Shown here in pieces: positions 7,818-37,730 of a stretch of 64,000 nt of DNA (positions are counted from its first letter, which is position 1; each line of letters opens with the position of its first letter). Below the pieces are notes generated by a model, which was given only the letters and a program-made list of their open reading frames with translations, did not search any database and was not told where the DNA came from. A program made the translations under genes and the position numbers. The stretch is from positions 48 through 64,047 of the forward strand of contig CARMXJ010000002.1 in NCBI GenBank assembly GCA_949025205.1. Direction: 5' to 3'. This stretch comes from an uncultured Bacilli bacterium. Its GTDB lineage: Bacteria > Bacillota_I > Bacilli_A > RF39 > UBA660.

Positions 7818-7893
<76 letters not shown>

Positions 7894-7898
7894 ATAAA

Positions 7899-7975
7899 TG
7901 GCGGTCCCGAAGGGATTTGAACCCTCGATCTTCTGCGTGACAGGCAGACGTGATAGACCGCTACACTACGGGACC
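7899..7975 (-). tRNA. tRNA-Asp (GTC)
   Basis: Anticodon stem-loop TCTGC-CTGTCAC-GCAGA; acceptor GGTCCCG...CGGGACC-G-CCA. Confidence 0.85.
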
Positions 7976-7979
7976 AATT

Positions 7980-8056
<77 letters not shown>

Positions 8057-8072
8057 ATAACTAAAAAATTAA

Positions 8073-8165
8073 TGGCGGAGGAAAAGGGATTCGAACCCCT
8101 GCGCCGCTTGCGCGACCTATCGGTTTTCAAGACCGGTCCCTTCAGCCAGACTTGGGTATTCCTCC
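8073..8165 (-). tRNA. tRNA-Ser (TGA)
   Basis: 93 nt with a long variable arm, anticodon loop CTTGAAA, acceptor GGAGGAA/TTCCTCC-G-CCA. Confidence 0.8.
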
Positions 8166-8308
8166 AGCGACAAACTGATTATATCATAGGACTTTTTTAT
8201 GTGTCAACCGAAAAAATTGGCATTTTATCGTTTTTAGCAAAAAAAGCTTGATTATTTTATTTTTTAATATTATACTTAAAGAGTCTTATATATTTAAGAC
8301 AGTGCCAT

Positions 8309-8397
8309 GCCCAAGTGGCGGAATAGGTAGACGCACAGGACTTAAAATCCTGCGGGTGTTAAAACCCGTGCCGGTTCAAGTCCGGCCTTGGGCACCA
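8309..8397 (+). tRNA. tRNA-Leu (TAA)
   Basis: 89 nt, anticodon stem-loop CAGGA-CTTAAAA-TCCTG, long variable arm, T-arm GCCGG...CCGGC, CCA encoded. The track ORFs 8248-8445 and 8359-8568 overlap it and are spurious. Confidence 0.85.
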
Positions 8398-19619: not shown

Positions 19620-19696
19620 GGGCGCTTAGCTCAGTTGGTTAGAGCACCTGCCTTACAAGCAGGGGGTCATAGGTTCGAGTCCTATAGCGCCCACCA
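19620..19696 (+). tRNA. tRNA-Val (TAC)
   Basis: Anticodon stem-loop CCTGC-CTTACAA-GCAGG; acceptor GGGCGCT...AGCGCCC-A-CCA. Confidence 0.85.
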
Positions 19697-19708
19697 TTTA
19701 TTTTTTTT

Positions 19709-19784
19709 GCCGACATAGCGTAATTGGTAGCGCAACTGACTTGTAATCAGTAGGTTGGGGGTTCGATTCCCTCTGTCGGCACCA
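19709..19784 (+). tRNA. tRNA-Thr (TGT)
   Basis: Anticodon stem-loop ACTGA-CTTGTAA-TCAGT; acceptor GCCGACA...TGTCGGC-A-CCA. Confidence 0.85.
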
Positions 19785-19792
19785 TTCATTTT

Positions 19793-19876
19793 GGAGGGAT
19801 AGCGAAGTGGTCAAACGCGGCAGACTGTAAATCTGTTCCTTCGGGTTCCATGGTTCAAATCCATGTCCCTCCACCA
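19793..19876 (+). tRNA. tRNA-Tyr (GTA)
   Basis: 84 nt with a long variable arm; anticodon loop CTGTAAA; acceptor GGAGGGA...TCCCTCC-A-CCA. Confidence 0.85.
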
Positions 19877-19889
19877 TTTCTTAATTTAT

Positions 19890-19965
19890 TGCCTCGTAGC
19901 CAAGTGGTAAGGCATCAGACTTTGACTCTGACATTCCGGTGGTTCGAACCCACCCGAGGCAGCCA
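19890..19965 (+). tRNA. tRNA-Gln (TTG)
   Basis: U1-A72 start (TGCCTCG...CGAGGCA-G-CCA); anticodon stem-loop TCAGA-CTTTGAC-TCTGA. Confidence 0.8.
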
Positions 19966-19977
19966 TTTTTAATTTTT

Positions 19978-20053
19978 GATCCGCTAGCTCAGTTGGTAGA
20001 GCATTTGACTTTTAATCAAAGGGTCTTGGGTTCGAATCCCAAGCGGGTCACCA
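19978..20053 (+). tRNA. tRNA-Lys (TTT)
   Basis: Anticodon stem-loop TTTGA-CTTTTAA-TCAAA; acceptor GATCCGC...GCGGGTC-A-CCA. Confidence 0.85.
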
Positions 20054-22414: not shown

Positions 22415-22491
22415 GCACCCATAGCTCAATTGGATAGAGCGCTAGACTACGGATCTAGAGGTTAGGGGTTCGACTCCCTTTGGGTGCACCA
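22415..22491 (+). tRNA. tRNA-Arg (ACG)
   Basis: Anticodon stem-loop CTAGA-CTACGGA-TCTAG; acceptor GCACCCA...TGGGTGC-A-CCA. Confidence 0.85.
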
Positions 22492-22543
22492 TTTAAATTT
22501 TTTGTAGCATTTTTTTAAAATGATGCTATAATATAGTATGTAT

Positions 22544-22620
22544 CGGGAAGTGGCTCAACTTGGTAGAGCACTTGGTTTGGGACCAAGGGGTTGCAGGTTC
22601 AAATCCTGTCTTCCCGACCA
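22544..22620 (+). tRNA. tRNA-Pro (TGG)
   Basis: Anticodon stem-loop CTTGG-TTTGGGA-CCAAG; acceptor CGGGAAG...CTTCCCG-A-CCA. Confidence 0.85.
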
Positions 22621-24732: not shown

Positions 24733-25611
24733 ATGGTAAATAATCAAGAAATAGCAGAAAAATTAGAACAAATTAAATCAGAAGTTACGAGTTATATTTA
24801 TGAGAATATGAATGAAGATTTTCAAGGGAAAATGAATAGTCCAGAAGGTGCAGAAGCAACATTTACTACTGAAAATGGTTCAGAAGTTCAATTTACATCT
24901 TTTCAAGATTTTATAGAAAGGTTTGTAGTTGTAGAAACTACAGGAAAAGTATTGGATAAACCATTTGAATTTAATTTTCGTAGTTCTATGATGGATTATG
25001 GATGTGGTACTATTTTTAGTGGTAAATATGGTATTGCATTTTGGAATGTAGGAAATGATGAAATGAAACCTACTATTAAACCTTTTAAAAAATTTTTAGG
25101 AAGAAAGAGTTTTCATTTTGCTGATAAAGCCTTTTCAGAAATACTTCCTTTGCTTGAGGAATTTACTAGAGATATAAAAACAATTCAACCAATGGAAGGA
25201 ACAAAGCAATTTTTAATAAAACAAGAAGATGTTTTAAAGAAGGATGAAGTAACAGAAATATCTTTAAGGAAAGAAGCGTCTCAATCTGATGTTCAAATTC
25301 ATCAAGAACAAGTAGCATGTATAGCAGGGACAGAAACATATACAGAAATGGTAGATGGAGTAGAATATGAATACGAATTATGTGGTGAGTGCGGAAATAA
25401 AATGAATTATTGTACAAAAGAGCAAGAACATATCCACAATTATATTGGAGAAAATGATAATCAATCCTATGAAGGAATAAATACAAGGGAAGGATTAGAA
25501 ACAATAAAAGATACATTAGTCTATTGTCAAATGTGTTCAAGTTATTCTGATGTTGATTTAAGTTTAAATAGTGAAGAAGTGGATACGCCATCTTCTGGAA
25601 TAAAAATGTAG
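24733..25611 (+). CDS. hypothetical protein with C-terminal CxxC...CxxC zinc-ribbon-like motifs
   Basis: 292 aa with CGECGNKMNYC...CQMCS near the C-terminus and a GGGG RBS. No other recognised domain. Confidence 0.5.
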   Translation: MVNNQEIAEKLEQIKSEVTSYIYENMNEDFQGKMNSPEGAEATFTTENGSEVQFTSFQDFIERFVVVETTGKVLDKPFEFNFRSSMMDYGCGTIFSGKYGIAFWNVGNDEMKPTIKPFKKFLGRKSFHFADKAFSEILPLLEEFTRDIKTIQPMEGTKQFLIKQEDVLKKDEVTEISLRKEASQSDVQIHQEQVACIAGTETYTEMVDGVEYEYELCGECGNKMNYCTKEQEHIHNYIGENDNQSYEGINTREGLETIKDTLVYCQMCSSYSDVDLSLNSEEVDTPSSGIKM

Positions 25612-30402: not shown

Positions 30403-31683
30403 CTATTTGCATTTTTTGATGATTATTTTTTGGACAAAAAAGTTATCATAAATGCTTGTATCTTTGGAAAAAGTATCACTGTGTTTAATAATTTGTTGAA
30501 ATAAATATAAACCGATTCCACGATTTTTTCCTTTGCTGCTAAATCCCTTCTCTTCCAAACGGTCAATGGAAATATGCTTAAACGTATTGGCAAGAACGAT
30601 TACAATATTTTCATCTTCTTGGTAAAGATGCAAGCTTATCATTTTTTCTTTGCTTTCTATACTGGCTTCTATAGCGTTATCTAAAATAATTCCTAAAAGG
30701 GTATACAAATCATTTTTTTCTTGAGTATTTAAGAAGTCTTCTTTTAGTTTTGAAATATCTTCTGAAATATAGACTTCTACCTCAATATTTAACTCTTTCA
30801 TTTTTAATAATTTAAAATTAATCAATCCTTTTACTCCTGCAATAGGAATGTTTTTTATATCGGTTAGCCAGCGATAATGGTTTACTGCTTTTTCTTCTAA
30901 AATAGAATCAATATACTCTTGTAATTCTTTTTGATTTTCGTTTGCCATTCCTTTGATAATAATTAGTTTATTTTTGTATTCGTGAATGAAACTTTTGTAC
31001 TCTGTTAAAAGACCTTCTGTAAATTCAGAATATTCTAAAATTTTTTGGTAATTTTTATTTAAAATGTTGTTTTTATCTTTTTCTTGAAATAGGAAAAAAA
31101 TAAGATTAAAAATAATAAAAAATAAAAATAAATTTAAAATATTTTGCATACAAAAATAAGAGGAATACGTAGGAATACGTATCATAATAATAAACAAAAG
31201 CCCTAGATTGTTAAAAATACTTTTGGTAAGTGTCTTGGGGGTTTTATAGACATGAGGGTTAGTAATATATTCTTTTAAAGATTGTGCAAATGTAAAAATA
31301 AAAATACTAGACAAAATAGAAGTAAAGATAATCATCGTATAATTAGAAGGAATGGTAATATTTAAAAAATATAAAATTGCTTTTAAAATCACTTCAAAAG
31401 AAAAACGAATCATGTATAAGATGACAAGTAGAGTAATGAGGGTTTGGGTACTTTCAGTGCATTTTAAAAAGAGAAATAAAATGGTAAGTAAAATATAAAA
31501 GGTAAAAGCAATGAGTGGCTCTGTATAAATAGCATTAATCGCATATAAAAGAGCAAATAAAAAAATATTAGCTATAGTAAGAAGTTTTTTTCTTTTTTTT
31601 GACGGAAATAAAAAGTGAGTAATAAAAAAAAGATAGGTAAAGAGCCATAGTCCTAAACCAAATTCATACCATATCATATTCAT
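30403..31683 (-). CDS. AgrC/ComD-like membrane sensor histidine kinase (HATPase_c_5)
   Basis: About six N-terminal TM helices, then a GHKL ATPase domain (NAIEA...GKNRGIGL). It overlaps the upstream LytTR regulator by 20 nt. Confidence 0.75.
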   Translation of the reverse strand: MNMIWYEFGLGLWLFTYLFFITHFLFPSKKRKKLLTIANIFLFALLYAINAIYTEPLIAFTFYILLTILFLFLKCTESTQTLITLLVILYMIRFSFEVILKAILYFLNITIPSNYTMIIFTSILSSIFIFTFAQSLKEYITNPHVYKTPKTLTKSIFNNLGLLFIIMIRIPTYSSYFCMQNILNLFLFFIIFNLIFFLFQEKDKNNILNKNYQKILEYSEFTEGLLTEYKSFIHEYKNKLIIIKGMANENQKELQEYIDSILEEKAVNHYRWLTDIKNIPIAGVKGLINFKLLKMKELNIEVEVYISEDISKLKEDFLNTQEKNDLYTLLGIILDNAIEASIESKEKMISLHLYQEDENIVIVLANTFKHISIDRLEEKGFSSKGKNRGIGLYLFQQIIKHSDTFSKDTSIYDNFFVQKIIIKKCK

Positions 31684-32410
31684 CCCCCTTTGTTATTTTT
31701 TCTTTTAAGATTTTCTTTTTGTTTCTAGAAAGCAAATCGGTAGAGCCATTGTTTATAAAATAAATTCGATTGTTTGTAAAATCGATTCTTTCAATATTTT
31801 TTAAGTTTACGATACAGCTTTGATGGGTTTTGAAAAAATAAGGTACACTTAAAAGTTCCGTTTCAATTTTGGTAATGCTTTGTTTTAATTTAAAAGTATC
31901 GTGTTTGGTAATAATCGAAGTATAGTTGTGATTTAAATCTTTTTCAAAATACAAAATATCCTGATAGGAAATTTGATAGAGTTCATTGTTATAAGTAAAT
32001 TTGAAAGATTTATGGCGAGAGTGAATACGAAGGGCTACTACGATTGCTTCTTCAATCTTATCATCAATGCATTCCTTTTTTGTTATAAAATCTAACATCA
32101 GTATTTTGCTTGTATACCCTTCTTCTTTAAAACATTCATGAGAGGTAATCATAATCATTTGGCTTTCCCAGTCTCCCGTGTTTCTTATTTCTCTAGCTAA
32201 ATCAAGGCCAGATTTTCCTGGAACTTCCATATCCAAAAGATAAATATTTTTTCCAAGTAAATCGTCTAATTTTTTCTTGGCTTCTTTGGTGTATTTATCG
32301 ATAACTAAAATTTGGTAATGGTCTTTTTTATGCCCTATCACTCTTAATATGGCTTTTCTGTAATTTTCTTGCCATTTTTTACTGTCTTCGTAAATTATAA
32401 AGTTAATCAT
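31664..32410 (-). CDS. LytTR-family response regulator
   Basis: Receiver domain (LLDMEVPGKSGLDLAREI) plus a C-terminal LytTR DNA-binding domain. The start is the ATG at 32410, preceded by GGTGAAAAG; the track ORF extends to 32590. Confidence 0.8.
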   Translation of the reverse strand: MINFIIYEDSKKWQENYRKAILRVIGHKKDHYQILVIDKYTKEAKKKLDDLLGKNIYLLDMEVPGKSGLDLAREIRNTGDWESQMIMITSHECFKEEGYTSKILMLDFITKKECIDDKIEEAIVVALRIHSRHKSFKFTYNNELYQISYQDILYFEKDLNHNYTSIITKHDTFKLKQSITKIETELLSVPYFFKTHQSCIVNLKNIERIDFTNNRIYFINNGSTDLLSRNKKKILKEKITKGDEYDMV

Positions 32411-32614
32411 ATTCTTTTCACCTGATTTTATTCGTACTTTGCTAGTGTAGCATAAAACAAAATTTGCTCTTTTTTTTCGTTTTTCTAAAAATATACTTTT
32501 TTGTCTAAATAGGTCTTTTTTAAATTTAAAATATTTTCCTTTTTTCTTTAGGCGGGCTAAAAAAATGAGTTGAAGTGGGATTCTTTTCAAGGTAAAATAA
32601 AGGTAGGTGATACG

Positions 32615-33458: not shown

Positions 33459-33487
33459 TAAACTCTCTGGATTTGAGAGTTTTTTGT
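33459..33487 (+). terminator. rho-independent terminator
   Basis: Perfect 8-bp stem aaactctc/gagagttt, 7-nt loop, T6. Confidence 0.75.
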
Positions 33488-33569: not shown

Positions 33570-33597
33570 TTGACTTTTTTATTTGCTTGTGTTAGTA
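33570..33597 (+). promoter_or_regulatory. candidate promoter of the surface-protein cluster (TTGACT-16-TGtTAGTAT extended -10)
   Basis: TTGACT at 33570-75 and an extended -10 TGnTAGTAT at 33589-97, about 115 nt upstream of the 33714 ATG. Confidence 0.4.
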
Positions 33598-33713
33598 TAA
33601 ATGCCAATTTAAAGAGAGACAGCATGCGATTAAGGAAAAAAATATTGGAAGAAATATAAAATTGGCTTAATGTAATTAACAATTTTATACAAAAAGAAAG
33701 AAAGGTTTAAAAA

Positions 33714-35894
33714 ATGAAAAAAGAAGAAACTCCAAAAAATGTATTTGAAAAAAAGAATGCTATTAAAAAGGCATTTGCTGGTATAGGTGTTGCAGCTCTT
33801 TTATCTTTAGGAGTAATAGCTTGTAATAAATATAATGAAAAAAGAGCAGAAAATATTTATACTCCAAGTTTAGAAGACTTAATTGGTGATGTAGAAGATG
33901 AAGAACAAATTGTAGTTGTAGATGAACAACCAGTTGAAGAAGAAATAGAAGAATTTGCTGAAGAAAAAGAAGAACTAGAAGAAGAAATCGAAAGTGACCA
34001 TCCATTTGATGCTATTGATTTATCTAATTATGAAGGATATAGTCTTGATGAAGCTTTAAAATCTATTGGATTAGAACCTACCCCAGAACTTAAAGCAGAA
34101 CTAGCAGCGTATCTTGAAATAGATCCATATCTTAAAACTGCAGAACAAAATATCCGTATTTTACAAAGTCTAGGTGCTACAATAAAAGTTGGTGGCGTTG
34201 AAAAAGAAGCTATTAAAAATGAAAATGGAGAATTTGTAGTTGTTCCTATTGATGAAGAAAAAAAGAAACAAGAGGGAAATGGAGTTGACTCTGATAATAG
34301 GCAAAATGAAGGAGCTTCTAACGAAACTACAACTCCAGAAAATCAAGGACCAGAAAATAATTCGGAAACTGCCAATAGAGATTCTAATTCATCTAGTGAT
34401 AGTAGTGATTCATCTTCTAATAATGGCAGTGATGATGAATTTGATAATAATAACGGTAATACCAATACTGGTAATAATCAAGGAACTGATAATCCCGGAA
34501 ATAACAATAACGACAATAATAATGGAAATACCAATACCGATAATAATCAAGGAACTGATAATCCAGGAAATAATGATAATAATGACAATACAGAAGAAGA
34601 AATTAAGACTTATGTTGAGTTATATCATAAATGGGTTGATAACCAAGATGGTACATGTTCTTTAGAATCTATTCAACAATGTAACGAAGATGGAAGTATC
34701 AAAACAGTTATTATAAAAACACAAGCTCATGCAATGGGAGAATGGATAACAAATGAAGCTGGTACAGAAAAAACAAGAAAATGTGAAAATGATTGTGGAT
34801 ATAAAGAAATAGAAGAAATAAAGAAACCAGAACCAGTGCAACATGAGCATAATTATGTATCAGTTCCAGGGTCACAAAGATATGTAAACAACGGAGATGG
34901 AACACATTCCTTAGTAGAGAATCAAGAATGTAATGTAGAGGGATGTCCTGAAGACGAAAAGATAAAAACAGATGTTGAATTATCAAGAGAGAACCATACA
35001 ATGGGAGAATGGGTAACAAATGAAGCTGGAACAGAGAAAGAAAGAAAATGTACAGCAGAAGGTTGTGGATATAAAGAAACAGAAGAAATAAAGAAACCAG
35101 AACCAGTGCAACATGAGCATAATTATGTATCAGTTCCAGGGTCACAAAGATATGTAAACAACGGAGATGGAACACATTCCTTAGTAGAGAATCAAGAATG
35201 TAATGTAGAGGGATGTCCTGAAGACGAAAAGATAAAAACAGATGTTGAATTATCAAGAGAGAACCATACAATGGGAGAATGGGTAACAAATGAAGCTGGA
35301 ACAGAGAAAGAAAGAAAATGTACAGCAGAAGGTTGTGGATATAAAGAAACAGAAGAAATAAAGAAACCAGAACATTCTCACATATATGTTGATGTTGAAG
35401 GAACAGGACATTATGTAGATAATGGCGATGGAACACATTCTTGGGTGGTAGATCAAGTATGTAATGAAGCAGGATGTCCAGAAGATGAAAAATCTAAGAA
35501 AGACGTAGTAGTTTCTACTGATGCTCATACACCTACTGATATTAATCAAGCAAATGGTAAATATAAAGATGTATGGTGTCCTACTTGTGGAACTTATTTA
35601 GAATATGATGTACCTGTTAGTTCAGTTACAGCAACAGTTCATGAAGAAGGACATGTTGATCCGGTTCAAGAATCTAAATTTAATGATGCATATTTAGAGG
35701 CAATTATAGAAGAAAATAATGTAGCAGAAGATAATTATGATTACCCAGTTTCAGAGGATATGATGCATTATGATTCAGAAGAACAACCTTTGAATAATGA
35801 TTATCCTGTATCTGGCGATGGAGATACTCCAGAAAACGAAGAAGAATTAATTCTAGGACGTAGATTAACACCAAAATCTTATTATAGAGCTTAA
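33714..35894 (+). CDS. lipoprotein with low-complexity N/G/T region and tandem 90-aa four-cysteine repeat modules
   Basis: Signal peptide with lipobox VIAC. Acidic region, NNNGNTNT low-complexity region, then about 4 modules (2 identical) containing CNVEGC and CTAEGCGY pairs. Confidence 0.75.
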   Translation: MKKEETPKNVFEKKNAIKKAFAGIGVAALLSLGVIACNKYNEKRAENIYTPSLEDLIGDVEDEEQIVVVDEQPVEEEIEEFAEEKEELEEEIESDHPFDAIDLSNYEGYSLDEALKSIGLEPTPELKAELAAYLEIDPYLKTAEQNIRILQSLGATIKVGGVEKEAIKNENGEFVVVPIDEEKKKQEGNGVDSDNRQNEGASNETTTPENQGPENNSETANRDSNSSSDSSDSSSNNGSDDEFDNNNGNTNTGNNQGTDNPGNNNNDNNNGNTNTDNNQGTDNPGNNDNNDNTEEEIKTYVELYHKWVDNQDGTCSLESIQQCNEDGSIKTVIIKTQAHAMGEWITNEAGTEKTRKCENDCGYKEIEEIKKPEPVQHEHNYVSVPGSQRYVNNGDGTHSLVENQECNVEGCPEDEKIKTDVELSRENHTMGEWVTNEAGTEKERKCTAEGCGYKETEEIKKPEPVQHEHNYVSVPGSQRYVNNGDGTHSLVENQECNVEGCPEDEKIKTDVELSRENHTMGEWVTNEAGTEKERKCTAEGCGYKETEEIKKPEHSHIYVDVEGTGHYVDNGDGTHSWVVDQVCNEAGCPEDEKSKKDVVVSTDAHTPTDINQANGKYKDVWCPTCGTYLEYDVPVSSVTATVHEEGHVDPVQESKFNDAYLEAIIEENNVAEDNYDYPVSEDMMHYDSEEQPLNNDYPVSGDGDTPENEEELILGRRLTPKSYYRA
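34821..35374 (+). repeat. perfect 270-bp tandem direct repeat (2.05 copies) inside the lipoprotein CDS
   Basis: 34821-35090 and 35091-35360 are identical nucleotide-for-nucleotide by direct comparison. Diverged partial copies flank on both sides. Confidence 0.9.
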
Positions 35895-35943: not shown

Positions 35944-36558
35944 ATGAAAAAGGGCAAAAAATGGTATAAGTCATTTAGTAACTGGCTAATCATTGTGGCT
36001 TGTGTCATACTAATACCTGTATTGGTAATGAATATAAGTATTATGTTTCAAGCAAAAAAGAATGAAAGTGCTGTCCCAAGTATATTCGGATTTAAGCCAT
36101 TCATTGTTCTATCTGGCTCAATGGAAACAGAAATACATAAAGGTGATATGATTATAACCAAAATAGTAGACCCTGCATCACTAGGAGTAGATGATGTCAT
36201 CGCTTTTAGAGATGCAGAGGATACTGTTACTACACATAGGATTATCGATGTTGTGGTAGAGGAAGGCCAAACTTACTTTATTACAAAGGGAGATAACAAT
36301 AGTACCCAAGATAGAAACTTGGTAGAACTAAGTGATGTAGAAGGTTTATATATAGGAAGAATTCCTGGGATTGGTTCGATGATGAATAGTTTATCAGAAC
36401 CAACAACAATTATTATTGTTGTGCTTGGAATTACGATAATATTTGTAATCGGCTTTACAATTTCTAGTAAGAAACAAAGAGAAGCCGAAAGAAAAGAATT
36501 CTTAGAATACAAAAGAATGAAGGAACAACAAGAAAATTCTAAGGAAAATAAAAAATAA
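35944..36558 (+). CDS. SipW-type (S26B, ER/archaeal-type) signal peptidase I, paralog 1
   Basis: SGSMETEIHKGD (catalytic Ser), THRI (His) and KGDNN motifs. C-terminal TM plus a K/E-rich tail. Confidence 0.8.
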   Translation: MKKGKKWYKSFSNWLIIVACVILIPVLVMNISIMFQAKKNESAVPSIFGFKPFIVLSGSMETEIHKGDMIITKIVDPASLGVDDVIAFRDAEDTVTTHRIIDVVVEEGQTYFITKGDNNSTQDRNLVELSDVEGLYIGRIPGIGSMMNSLSEPTTIIIVVLGITIIFVIGFTISSKKQREAERKEFLEYKRMKEQQENSKENKK

Positions 36559-36695: not shown

Positions 36696-37730
36696 ATGAA
36701 AAAGAGAACAATGGTACTAGGTGGTTTATTAATGGCAGTTGCTATTACTGGTTATTCAGTAAGTGGAACTTATGCTAAATACATTTCTGGTATTGATGAA
36801 ACTGATGAAGCAAGAGTTGCTAAATGGTCTTTCGGAGAAGGATTAAATGAAGCGGGTGTTGCAGATTTATTCAAATCATCTTATACACTTAAGAAAGATG
36901 GATGTACTGGAACTAAATGTGATTACACTTATGTTGTATCAAGCGATACTTCTGATGTTATTGCTCCAGGAACAAATGGTGAATATACATTCGAAATTAA
37001 TGGTGAAATGGAAACAAATTACATTTTAAATATTGCTATTGATGGTGATAATACTTATAATACTGTAACATTAACAAATGGTGAAATACTTTCAGCTAGT
37101 GATTTAGGTTCTTTAAATGCTAGCGACATTGCTTATAATCCATTACGTTTTAGATTATATAAACATAATATTGATTCAACAACTGGTACAGATAATACTA
37201 CTGATACTGATAAAGGTTATTGGTTAACTTATGATGAGTTTATCGCTGCTTTCAAGAAAATGTTCAATCCAGGAACAACTACTACATCATCTAAGAAAGT
37301 TAACAATCCATTATATGTACAAGCGGCCAATAATAATATTGATTTAGGAACTTATACTATTGAATGGGCATGGTCATTTGATTATGCTGATTTAGCAGCT
37401 AACTATAATGCATCAACATCAACTAAAACTCAAGATGCAGTTATAGCTAATGCACATGCAGCTCAAATAGGAATTGGTTCATTAACTACTTCAAAGAAAG
37501 TAGAAGCTTATACTGCAACTATTAATAAATATGATACTTTATTAGGTAACTCAATTATTGATGGTGTAAAAACATACAATGGTATGTCAGATGCTACTAC
37601 TACAGCTGCAAAGAAGAAAGAAGAATATAAGAAGTCTGGTGCATATAAAAACGTTAGCTTAAATGTTAACATTAGTGCTACACAAACTACTTGTGAAGCA
37701 GGTACATTAGTTAGTGATTGTACTAAATAA
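36696..37730 (+). CDS. secreted TasA/camelysin-like protein with SipW-cognate signal peptide
   Basis: N-terminus MKKRTMVLGGLLMAVAITGYSVSGTYAKYISGIDETDEARVAKWSF resembles the TasA/CalY N-terminal region (GGGTWAAFND... / GGGTFAYFSDKE...). T/S/N-rich mature region. Confidence 0.6.
   Translation: MKKRTMVLGGLLMAVAITGYSVSGTYAKYISGIDETDEARVAKWSFGEGLNEAGVADLFKSSYTLKKDGCTGTKCDYTYVVSSDTSDVIAPGTNGEYTFEINGEMETNYILNIAIDGDNTYNTVTLTNGEILSASDLGSLNASDIAYNPLRFRLYKHNIDSTTGTDNTTDTDKGYWLTYDEFIAAFKKMFNPGTTTTSSKKVNNPLYVQAANNNIDLGTYTIEWAWSFDYADLAANYNASTSTKTQDAVIANAHAAQIGIGSLTTSKKVEAYTATINKYDTLLGNSIIDGVKTYNGMSDATTTAAKKKEEYKKSGAYKNVSLNVNISATQTTCEAGTLVSDCTK

What the first reader, a model, noticed from the sequence alone, without database searches (positions are those of the whole stretch)
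34821..35374. 100%-identical 270-bp tandem repeats encoding four-cysteine modules inside the lipoprotein gene
Two complete copies (34821-35090 and 35091-35360) are nucleotide-identical, with diverged partial copies on both sides. Each 90-aa module carries an NGDGTHS segment and two CxxxGC pairs (CNVEGC, CTAEGCGY). Perfect identity implies very recent duplication or ongoing concerted evolution. Copy number is likely to vary between strains by slipped-strand or recombinational gain and loss. This could be length or antigenic variation of a surface lipoprotein, or a metal- or disulfide-stabilised stalk. Short-read assemblies often collapse such repeats.
Basis: seen in the sequence. Interest (0 to 1): 0.55.

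Follow-up and report, generated by a model that had tools for sequence, protein, structure and literature searches.

The report
Duplicated zinc-type module in surface lipoprotein
A probable surface lipoprotein of an uncultured gut bacterium carries a very recent, perfect duplication of one 90-residue module, rich in histidine and cysteine and probably metal-binding, from a rare uncatalogued family whose arrays are rebuilt independently in each species and often break short-read assemblies.

Summary
Window 34821-35090 and 35091-35360 are identical, and the exact period-270 identity spans 34811-35373 (chance about 1e-134). The repeat lies in a 726-aa probable lipoprotein gene (33714-35894) with four modules: M0, M1 = M2, and M3.

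Each module has eight conserved candidate metal ligands, not just four cysteines. Across 67 related modules, two of these columns swap Cys with His (38/27) or Cys with Asp (40/24). That pattern fits metal binding, probably zinc, and argues against disulfides. AlphaFold2 with a 31-module alignment gives a confident all-beta model (pLDDT 90.4). The model has no significant match in Pfam, NCBIfam, PDB or BFVD.

A 23-nt direct repeat flanks every unit, which gives a simple recombination or slippage route to the duplication. The syntenic gene in a sister species has its own 258-bp x 3.5 array that is 97-99% uniform. Its modules are only about 35% identical to those here, while neighbouring genes are 85-91% identical. 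This indicates lineage-specific turnover or concerted evolution.

The gene heads a conserved cluster with two SipW-type signal peptidases, in the same position as tapA in tapA-sipW-tasA.

Copy-number variation between strains could not be tested, because the available assemblies are nearly clonal. Two copies is a lower bound: one assembly has a 100-N gap in the repeat, and 4 of 13 related genomes break inside this gene.

The parts
33714..35894 (+). Gene for the 726-aa module protein (probable lipoprotein), first gene of the SipW cluster
   Evidence: ORF. The identical protein is found on 3 other MAG contigs. There is no Pfam or NCBIfam family. A GAAAGG ribosome-binding-like site lies upstream of the ATG.
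33570..33598 (+). Promoter-like site (TTGACT, 17 nt with TG, TAGTAT); weak evidence only
   Evidence: Consensus scan. It follows a terminator-like hairpin at 33460-33482, after the DUF2179 gene. No terminator-like site lies between the module gene and the next gene.
33714..33824 (+). Signal peptide with lipobox (L-G-V-I-A-C37)
   Evidence: Read from the sequence. Seven orthologues have a cysteine at the end of the signal peptide in a lipobox-like context: LLTGC, LSGC, LTSC, LVGC, VVGC, IGSC, MSGC.
33996..34283 (+). Conserved N-terminal domain (IDLSNY.G.S..DAL...G......LA...I..Y..TAEQN..LL), function unknown
   Evidence: 75% identical to the sister species, against 35% for the modules. It is present in L010, L013, L014, L017 and L018. 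The only family signal is a weak DUF3597 match. There is no PDB hit.
34284..34592 (+). Asn/Asp/Ser-rich low-complexity linker
   Evidence: Translation. TRF reports a 27-bp repeat at 34489-34554.
34593..34841 (+). Module M0 (diverged, 83 aa; has GTC instead of GTH)
   Evidence: Scores 116 bits against the module profile. DNA identity to M1 is 57% in the first half and 88% in the second half.
34842..35111 (+). Module M1 (90 aa, HEH...KKPEPVQ)
   Evidence: AlphaFold2 model has pLDDT 90.4.
35112..35372 (+). Module M2 (identical to M1 over its 87 aa)
35373..35633 (+). Module M3 (diverged, ends in a CPTCG knuckle)
   Evidence: Scores 118 bits against the module profile. It is 58% identical in DNA to M1.
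34811..35373 (+). Full span of the exact period-270 identity (two units plus 23 nt)
34811..34833 (+). 23-nt direct repeat AGAAGAAATAAAGAAACCAGAAC, copy 1 (M0/M1 junction)
35081..35103 (+). 23-nt direct repeat, copy 2 (M1/M2 junction)
35351..35373 (+). 23-nt direct repeat, copy 3 (M2/M3 junction)
35634..35891 (+). Acidic C-terminal region ending in a basic tail (LILGRRLTPKSYYRA)
   Evidence: Orthologues end in similar tails such as RVRTLKK, RTRTFKK, KVLKLEK and KTLSLIP.
35944..36558 (+). SipW-type signal peptidase I (first copy), 50 bp downstream
   Evidence: NF046067 at E 4.9e-31 (107.8 bits, below its equivalog cut-off of 190) and TIGR02228 at 90 bits, above its cut-off. It is 85% identical in the sister species and 64% in L006.
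36696..37730 (+). 344-aa secreted protein with N-terminal motif TYAKYISGIDETDEARVAKW; candidate SipW substrate
   Evidence: It has no Pfam, NCBIfam or PDB sequence match.
37836..41672 (+). 1278-aa membrane-anchored protein; the collection's precomputed Pfam hits list a Cadherin-like domain
   Evidence: Precomputed PF12733 annotation. Conserved in L004 and L006.
41685..42512 (+). Second SipW-type signal peptidase I
   Evidence: TIGR02228 at 71.3 bits, above its cut-off.
42523..43137 (+). 204-aa protein with the same N-terminal motif (TYSRYISGLQEKDDARSAKF)
   Evidence: BLASTP against the 344-aa protein: 60% identity over 20 aa, E 1e-5.
43166..45769 (+). 867-aa protein, last conserved gene of the cluster
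   Evidence: Synteny with L004 and L006. 29% identical to the L004 orthologue.

Best explanation
Shown: the 563-bp perfect repeat is a very recent in-frame duplication, or a homogenisation, of one 90-residue module inside a four-module array (M0, M1 = M2, M3). The array lies in a cell-surface protein with a lipoprotein-type signal.

Inferred mechanism of duplication: every unit is bounded by the same 23-nt direct repeat, which encodes EEIKKPE. Unequal recombination or replication slippage between two such repeats would add or remove exactly one module while keeping the reading frame.

Inferred from conservation: the module belongs to a rare, uncurated family of all-beta His/Cys units. Eight conserved ligand positions (H-x-H, G-T-H, C, C/D, H/C, C-x(1-4)-C-G) are enough for two tetrahedral metal sites, probably zinc. 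One part of the module resembles a zinc-ribbon knuckle.

Inferred function: strung together after a flexible Asn/Asp-rich linker, the modules most likely form a metal-stiffened stalk. The length of the stalk would be set by module number.

Inferred from gene position only: the gene is the first in a conserved cluster (module protein, SipW-type peptidase, secreted protein, giant Cadherin-like protein, second SipW-type peptidase, second secreted protein, large protein). The protein therefore probably acts as the membrane-anchored accessory or anchor for SipW-processed surface fibres or matrix proteins. That is the role TapA plays in tapA-sipW-tasA.

Shown: across species the arrays are rebuilt independently by module birth, death and homogenisation, and the modules evolve far faster than the rest of the locus.
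For: - Exact duplication and its odds.
- 23-nt direct repeat at all three junctions.
- Independent arrays. The syntenic orthologue P0002/L004 has a 258-bp x 3.5 array whose full copies differ at 3-5 of 261 nt. Its modules are about 35% identical to those in the window, while XFP is 91%, DUF2179 90% and SipW 85% identical.
- Older arrays occur in L013 (456 bp x 3.2, 87%) and L017 (357 bp x 2, 83%). No DNA-level array is detectable in L012, L014, L018 or L019.
- Ligand columns over 67 distinct modules from 15 proteins: H10 58/67, H29 61/67, C37 65/67, C77 66/67, C82 66/67. The column of window D45 holds C in 40 and D in 24. The column of window H59 holds C in 38 and H in 27.
- AlphaFold2 with a 31-module alignment: pLDDT 90.4, pTM 0.65, six beta strands.
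- Sub-threshold local Foldseek matches (34-49 aligned positions) to NrdR- and TFIIS-type zinc ribbons. Summed weak Pfam zinc-ribbon hits in relatives.
- Lipobox in the window protein and lipobox-like signal-peptide ends in 7 orthologues.
- Cluster conservation in L004, L006 and 13 GTDB-representative loci. A His/Cys-module protein lies directly upstream of SipW in 11 of the 13.
- No terminator-like site between the module gene and sipW.
- Published analogues: TapA-SipW-TasA (PMC10151520, PMC9674648) and sipW-bsaA (PMC7395162).
Against: - Metal binding has not been measured. I could not obtain model coordinates, so I could not check ligand geometry or which ligands pair.
- The alignment behind the model is shallow (31 rows, many from the same proteins).
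- There is no sequence or fold link to TapA. The 344-aa neighbour has no detectable TasA or camelysin homology.
- Three family members (P0005, P0007, P0024) have an N-terminal anchor without a lipobox cysteine.
- A half-module also occurs in a 292-aa protein without a signal peptide (24733-25611), so the unit is not strictly extracellular.
- There are no data on copy-number polymorphism or expression.
Confidence: 0.6

Rival explanations
1. The copy number in the window is wrong. The real array has three or more identical modules, and the assembler walked the loop the minimum number of times.
For: The exact repeat (563 bp) is longer than typical short reads. GCA_949089415.1 has a 100-N gap that replaces window 34866-35048. 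In 4 of 13 related representative genomes the contig ends inside the orthologous gene. L009 and L010 have N gaps in or near the orthologous gene, though L010's gap lies in the C-terminal acidic repeat rather than in the modules.
Against: The window and three other contigs all give two copies. They are the same strain and probably the same type of pipeline, so this agreement is weak evidence.
Confidence: 0.3
2. The array is a contingency locus. Gain and loss of modules gives length or antigenic variation of an exposed lipoprotein, as with the tandem-repeat Vsa/Vlp lipoproteins of mycoplasmas. The selected property would be escape from antibodies or phage, not anchoring of fibres.
For: The protein has a lipoprotein signal, perfect in-frame repeats with flanking direct repeats, and modules that diverge much faster (35%) than neighbouring genes (85-91%). 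Relatives are labelled uncultured Tenericutes or Bacilli.
Against: No strain-level polymorphism was seen. Units are large folded domains with strictly conserved ligands, not short low-complexity repeats. Several orthologues have only old, diverged modules and no array that could slip. The linkage to SipW is strictly conserved.
Confidence: 0.2
3. The cysteines form disulfides that stabilise an extracellular module, and no metal is involved.
For: The window module has four cysteines in two C-x4-C pairs. The protein is extracellular.
Against: Two conserved Cys columns are replaced by His (27 of 67) or Asp (24 of 67) in relatives, which keeps metal ligation but not a disulfide. Three or four histidines are conserved as strongly as the cysteines. 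The hosts are gut anaerobes (my inference from the MAG sources). One cysteine of the first pair (C42) is absent from 63 of 67 modules.
Confidence: 0.1
4. The duplication is a neutral, transient event with no functional consequence, in a protein whose role is unrelated to the SipW genes next to it.
For: There is only one strain, and no expression or phenotype data. The cluster link rests on gene order alone.
Against: The gene order is conserved across loci with SipW identity from 85% down to 60%. Arrays have arisen repeatedly in different lineages.
Confidence: 0.2

Closest known systems
Zinc-ribbon / zinc-knuckle domains (Pfam clan Zn_Beta_Ribbon; for example the NrdR N-terminal and TFIIB/TFIIS ribbons)
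   Same: Both have beta-hairpins that carry C-x(1-4)-C-G knuckles, Cys/His ligand sets and ligand interchange. Foldseek gives local sub-threshold matches. Relatives give summed weak Pfam hits.
   Different: The module is 90 aa with eight ligand positions, including an N-terminal H-x-H and an NGDGTH hairpin. It is tandemly arrayed and extracellular. No curated zinc-ribbon model reaches its cut-off on the window protein. No whole-module fold match was found.
TapA (YqxM) of the Bacillus subtilis tapA-sipW-tasA operon
   Same: Both genes lie directly upstream of a SipW-type peptidase that is followed by a secreted protein. TapA is a membrane-associated accessory protein for fibre assembly (PMC10151520).
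   Different: No sequence similarity was found. TapA is a 253-aa protein with a V-set Ig fold and an N-terminal donor strand, whereas this is a 726-aa lipoprotein with His/Cys modules. The downstream 344-aa protein shows no TasA homology.
Clostridium perfringens sipW-bsaABCRSD matrix operon
   Same: Both have a SipW-dependent secreted polymer-forming protein, accessory secreted proteins and an adjacent two-component system (PMC7395162). In the window a LytTR regulator and a kinase lie just upstream.
   Different: In that operon sipW is the first gene and no His/Cys-module lipoprotein is described. Homology of the substrates was not tested.
Tandem-repeat surface proteins with near-identical repeats: mycoplasma Vsa/Vlp lipoproteins and the staphylococcal Aap/SasG G5-E repeat stalks, including zinc-dependent Aap association (from my own knowledge, not tested here)
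   Same: All have in-frame repeats that are identical at the DNA level, a length-variable stalk or shield on the surface, and an assembly-collapse problem. A link to zinc is possible here as well.
   Different: The repeat unit here is a Cys/His-ligand domain of a different, uncatalogued fold. Copy-number variation has not been shown.
'IPALGH-x-W-GEW...ATC...C-x2-CG' repeats of gut Firmicutes surface proteins (recalled from my own knowledge; seen here in the L017 orthologue)
   Same: Both share the H...W...C-x-x-C-G skeleton of the second half-module. In L017 these repeats occupy the same gene position upstream of SipW.
   Different: They are shorter (about 38 aa) single-site units with an extra 'ATC' cysteine that the window modules lack. 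They also have no Pfam model.

Membership tests
Zinc ribbon (Zn_Beta_Ribbon clan) | Match to a curated zinc-ribbon profile above its cut-off | tested here: not met
   The best hit on the window protein is Zn_ribbon_Brz at E 0.035, 15.1 bits against a cut-off of 27.9, on the terminal CPTCG only. The relative P0007 reaches 32.4 bits on Zn_Ribbon_TF, but only by summing stretches of which none passes alone.
Zinc ribbon (Zn_Beta_Ribbon clan) | Two knuckles on beta-hairpins supplying four Cys/His ligands | tested here: inconclusive
   The C77-x4-C82-G knuckle lies between predicted strands 72-77 and 85-89. C37 plus C42/D45 follows strand 28-37.
Zinc ribbon (Zn_Beta_Ribbon clan) | Structural superposition on solved zinc ribbons | tested here: not met
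   Foldseek against PDB and BFVD gave no hit at E <= 1e-3. There were only 34-49-column matches to NrdR-type ribbons at E 1.2-2.6.
Zinc ribbon (Zn_Beta_Ribbon clan) | Bound Zn2+ | not testable with these tools
   This needs metal analysis of purified protein.
Bacterial lipoprotein | Signal peptide ending in a lipobox [LVI][ASTVI][GAS]C | tested here: met
   V-I-A-C37 follows a 17-residue hydrophobic stretch. Seven orthologues have a cysteine at the end of the signal peptide in a lipobox-like context. Three distant relatives lack the cysteine.
Bacterial lipoprotein | Lgt/LspA processing and lipid modification | not tested
   The enzymes were not searched for in the genome, and there is no experiment.
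TapA / TasA-type fibre system | Gene order: accessory gene, sipW, fibre subunit | tested here: met
   The module gene is followed after 50 bp by SipW, then by the 344-aa secreted protein. The order is conserved in L004, L006 and L007-L019.
TapA / TasA-type fibre system | Sequence homology to TapA or to TasA/camelysin (Peptidase_M73) | tested here: not met
   There is no Pfam, NCBIfam or PDB sequence hit for the module protein, the 344-aa protein or the 204-aa protein.
TapA / TasA-type fibre system | Donor-strand complementation between accessory protein and subunit | not testable with these tools
The conserved basic C-terminal tail is only a candidate.
Variable tandem-repeat surface lipoproteins (Vsa/Vlp type) | In-frame tandem repeats identical at the DNA level | tested here: met
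Variable tandem-repeat surface lipoproteins (Vsa/Vlp type) | Repeat number differs between strains or clones | tested here: inconclusive
   Only strains that are 99.9-100% identical were recovered: the window and three other contigs with two copies, and one with an unresolved 100-N gap. The JGI metagenome scan found nothing.
Collagen-flanked surface repeat (PF19079), Filamin and Cadherin-like repeats | Profile match over the domain | tested here: not met
   The window protein has no hit. Hits in relatives and in unrelated Ig-type proteins cover only the 13-23-residue DNGDGT hairpin.

The most novel reading that the evidence does not exclude
The modules define a previously undescribed extracellular beta-fold with two metal sites. 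Arrays of it would form a rigid stalk of adjustable length on a lipoprotein. That lipoprotein would be the TapA-like anchor or nucleator of a SipW-dependent fibre system in an uncultured, mycoplasma-like lineage of gut Bacilli. Module number would change between strains by recombination at the 23-nt junction repeats, which would tune how far the fibres sit from the membrane.
Probability: 0.15. Interest if true: 0.65.

Novelty: new variant of a known kind. Interest (0 to 1): 0.42.

Why it matters
Perfect tandem domain repeats in surface proteins are a familiar theme, so the duplication alone is ordinary. What adds value is the module and its setting.

- The module is a confidently modelled unit with eight His/Cys ligand positions and no Pfam, NCBIfam or PDB counterpart. 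An exhaustive search of 1.84 billion cluster representatives, using a profile built from only two species, recovered six relatives, one of them a fragment of this same gene.
- It always sits at the head of a conserved cluster with two SipW-type peptidases in uncultured gut Bacilli. This offers a candidate accessory or anchor protein for a SipW-dependent surface-fibre system outside Bacillus and Clostridium.
- It is a clean natural example of lineage-specific array turnover.
- There is a practical warning. This gene is a recurrent break point or gap in MAGs, so its copy number and presence are under-reported.

Tried and rejected
- The search for homologous proteins with the whole protein returned only the protein itself and one orthologue, because candidates were swamped by low-complexity words. 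With the module alignments A2 and A3 it returned nothing, not even the query protein. I treat that as a tool limitation, not as evidence of absence.
- The genome-contig scan with the protein alignment A1 found nothing. The second scan, with a SipW alignment, succeeded.
- The metagenome-contig scan with the protein found nothing.
- Single-sequence AlphaFold2 of the whole module region was unusable (pLDDT 38.7).
- A PDB sequence search with the module profile gave only chance-level hits. The filamin 'DNGDGTY' match is a hairpin motif, not homology.
- I rejected the STEEP1 annotation of P0002. It scores exactly at the cut-off of 27.0 bits with no single passing stretch, so it is a Cys/His pattern coincidence.
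- I rejected the hits to P0004, P0006, P0008, P0014 and similar proteins. These are Ig, cadherin or PKD proteins that match only the hairpin.
- I rejected the weak Methyltransf_3 and Flg_new hits on the window protein, which are below cut-off.
- I looked for TasA, camelysin or TIGR04088 signals in the 344-aa and 204-aa neighbours and found none.
- I could not assign which ligands share a metal, because model coordinates are not exposed.
Full report
**1. The observation**

Window 34821-35090 and 35091-35360 are identical base for base. The unbroken identity at lag 270 runs from 34811 to 35103, so the perfect repeat spans 34811-35373 (563 bp). Elsewhere in the gene the match rate at lag 270 is 0.348. 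The chance of 293 consecutive matches is therefore about 1e-134. Tandem Repeats Finder reports 34728-35373, period 270, 2.4 copies, 96% matches.

The repeat lies in frame in ORF 33714-35894 (+), which encodes 726 aa.

The 'partial copies' on each side are complete diverged modules, so the array is M0 (34593-34841), M1 (34842-35111), M2 (35112-35372) and M3 (35373-35633). M0 is 88% identical in DNA to M1 in its second half but only 57% in its first half. M3 is 58% identical overall.

**2. Is the duplication real, and is the count right?**

The three junctions (M0/M1, M1/M2, M2/M3) differ from one another within about 40 nt. An M1/M2 junction therefore requires real reads from an array with at least two copies.

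The identical 726-aa gene is present on three further MAG contigs: GCA_948760795.1, GCA_948645185.1 and ERZ17761644. These are 99.99-100% identical to the window over 16-20 kb. They are the same strain and say nothing about polymorphism.

A fifth assembly, GCA_949089415.1 (L005), is 99.94% identical and has a 100-N gap in place of window 34866-35048. The gene caller there produced the truncated protein P0003.

Two copies is the minimum path through a de Bruijn loop (my inference). The true number could be higher.

**3. The protein**

- The N-terminus has a long charged region, a 17-residue hydrophobic stretch and V-I-A-C37. This is a lipobox.
- Seven orthologues have a cysteine at the end of the signal peptide in a lipobox-like context (LLTGC, LSGC, LTSC, LVGC, VVGC, IGSC, MSGC). 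Three distant relatives have an anchor without a cysteine.
- A conserved domain follows at residues 95-190. It is 75% identical in the sister species. It gives only a weak DUF3597 signal and has no PDB relative.
- Next come an Asn/Asp/Ser-rich linker, the four modules, and an acidic region ending in a basic tail. The tail recurs in orthologues as RVRTLKK, RTRTFKK, KVLKLEK and similar.
- No Pfam or NCBIfam model reaches its threshold on the protein.

**4. The module family**

I built a profile from five modules of the window protein and its orthologue and scored it against all 1.84 billion cluster representatives. It gave 24 hits at E <= 1e-3.

- Only P0003 (a fragment of the same gene), P0005, P0007, P0009, P0019 and P0024 match over the whole module.
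- The other hits are Ig, cadherin, filamin or PKD proteins that share just the DNGDGT hairpin.
- None of the true relatives has a Pfam family. They show only summed weak zinc-ribbon hits.

I then compared 67 distinct modules from 15 proteins.

| Ligand position (window numbering, 106-residue construct) | Residues across 67 modules |
|---|---|
| H8 | H in 37, C in 3 |
| H10 | H in 58 |
| H29 | H in 61 |
| C37 | C in 65 |
| D45 column | C in 40, D in 24 |
| H59 column | C in 38, H in 27 |
| C77 | C in 66 |
| C82 | C in 66 |

The Cys-His and Cys-Asp interchange preserves metal ligation but not disulfide bonding. Eight positions are enough for two tetrahedral sites. The window's C42 is a lineage-specific extra, absent from 63 of 67 modules. 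'Four-cysteine module' is therefore numerically right here but is not the family signature.

**5. Structure**

Without an alignment the prediction failed (pLDDT 38.7). With the 31-module alignment A3, AlphaFold2 gave pLDDT 90.4 and pTM 0.65 for residues 370-475. The predicted strands are 12-14, 20-23, 28-37, 48-58, 72-77 and 85-89.

Foldseek found no match at E <= 1e-3 in PDB or BFVD. The only recurring signals are local sub-threshold alignments of 34-49 columns to NrdR- and TFIIS-type zinc ribbons.

In an antiparallel register, H29 and H59 would lie at one end of the 28-37/48-58 hairpin, near H8 and H10. C37 and C42/D45 would lie at the other end, near the C77-C82 knuckle. That would place one metal at each end of an elongated unit. 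This is my inference from the strand register; I could not obtain coordinates to check it.

**6. How the duplication arose**

The same 23 nt, AGAAGAAATAAAGAAACCAGAAC (encoding EEIKKPE), occurs at 34811-34833, 35081-35103 and 35351-35373. These are the boundaries of each unit. Unequal recombination or slippage between two such repeats duplicates or deletes exactly 270 bp in frame (inference). The perfect identity means the event, or a later gene conversion, is very recent.

**7. Turnover across species**

The only close homologue is P0002 (38% identity), and it is the syntenic orthologue. Its gene has a 258-bp x 3.5 array whose three full copies differ at 3-5 of 261 nt. Its modules are only about 35% identical to those in the window. 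Flanking genes are far more conserved: XFP 91%, DUF2179 90%, SipW 85%.

A scan of GTDB representatives with a SipW alignment returned 13 loci. All are MAGs, most labelled uncultured Tenericutes, Bacilli or Erysipelotrichaceae (one each is labelled Firmicutes or Bacteroides).

- A His/Cys-module protein lies directly upstream of SipW in 11 of the 13, with roughly 4 to 13 modules of very different sequence.
- L017 carries the 'IPALGH-x-WGEW...C-x2-CG' repeats common in gut Firmicutes. That they are common is my own recollection; the link to them is my inference.
- DNA-level arrays range from 87% (L013, 456 bp x 3.2) and 83% (L017, 357 bp x 2) to undetectable (L012, L014, L018, L019).
- In 4 of the 13 the contig ends inside this gene, and two more have N gaps in or near it.

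Arrays are thus born, homogenised and decay independently in each lineage, and they routinely defeat short-read assembly.

**8. Genomic context and likely role**

Fifty base pairs downstream lies a SipW-type signal peptidase (NF046067 at E 4.9e-31, below that model's equivalog cut-off; TIGR02228 above its cut-off). The following genes are:

- a 344-aa secreted protein;
- a 1278-aa protein whose precomputed Pfam annotation lists a Cadherin-like domain;
- a second SipW-type peptidase;
- a 204-aa protein;
- an 867-aa protein.

This order is conserved in L004 and L006. The 344-aa and 204-aa proteins share the N-terminal motif TY[AS][KR]YISG..E.D.AR.AK[WF]. This suggests two peptidase-substrate pairs (inference). 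Neither protein shows TasA or camelysin homology.

No terminator-like site separates the module gene from sipW. A terminator-like hairpin and a promoter-like site precede the module gene.

The arrangement copies the order of tapA-sipW-tasA. In that operon TapA is the membrane-associated accessory protein that starts TasA filaments by strand complementation (PMC10151520, PMC9674648). SipW-dependent polymers are also known from C. perfringens (PMC7395162).

I therefore propose that the module protein is the lipid-anchored accessory or anchor of this system, and that the module array is a metal-stiffened spacer. This rests on position only. No homology to TapA exists.

**9. Verdict**

Copy-number and antigenic variation remain untested. 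The phenomenon is a known kind (identical tandem domain repeats in a surface protein). It is built from an uncatalogued His/Cys module in an unstudied SipW cluster of uncultured gut Bacilli. Interest is moderate.

Noticed in passing
window 24733-25611 (+): A 292-aa ORF with no Pfam hit and no signal peptide carries one half-module, VACIAGTETYTEMVDGVEYEYELCGECGNKMNYCTKEQEHIHNY. It is 52% identical (E 6e-13) to the second half of the sister species' lipoprotein module. That is closer than the window's own lipoprotein modules are, which suggests that half-modules move between genes.
   Followed up: partly
window 33996-34283 (residues 95-190 of the lipoprotein): A conserved N-terminal domain (IDLSNY.G.S..DAL...G....LA...I..Y..TAEQN..LL) is shared by most orthologues. 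It is weakly DUF3597-like and has no solved relative. It evolves much more slowly than the modules and may be the functional head of the protein.
   Followed up: partly
window 36696-37730 and 42523-43137: Two secreted proteins, each just downstream of one of the two SipW-type peptidase genes, share the N-terminal motif TY[AS][KR]YISG..E.D.AR.AK[WF] (60% identity over 20 aa). This may be a dedicated cleavage or assembly signal. They show no TasA or camelysin homology.
   Followed up: partly
window 35634-35891, and the C-termini of orthologues in L007-L019: Orthologues end with a long acidic low-complexity region followed by a short basic tail with alternating hydrophobic residues (RVRTLKK, RTRTFKK, KVLKLEK, GRRLTPKSYYRA). 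This may be an interaction or donor strand.
   Followed up: no
window 30403-32590 (-): A LytTR-type response regulator and a HATPase_c_5 histidine kinase lie two genes upstream of the cluster on the opposite strand, with the DUF2179 gene in between. The pair is conserved in L004, and genes of matching sizes sit in the same position in L006. It could regulate the cluster, as BsaR/BsaS regulates sipW-bsaA.
   Followed up: no
window 7821-8394, 19620-20050 and 22415-22617: Twelve tRNA genes lie in three groups in the first third of the window.
   Followed up: no
L009 8029-8265, L010 9759-9858, and contig ends in L008, L011, L015 and L016: Across GTDB representative MAGs of this lineage, the gene upstream of SipW is a recurrent site of scaffold gaps and contig breaks. 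Its presence and length are therefore systematically under-recorded in catalogues.
   Followed up: yes
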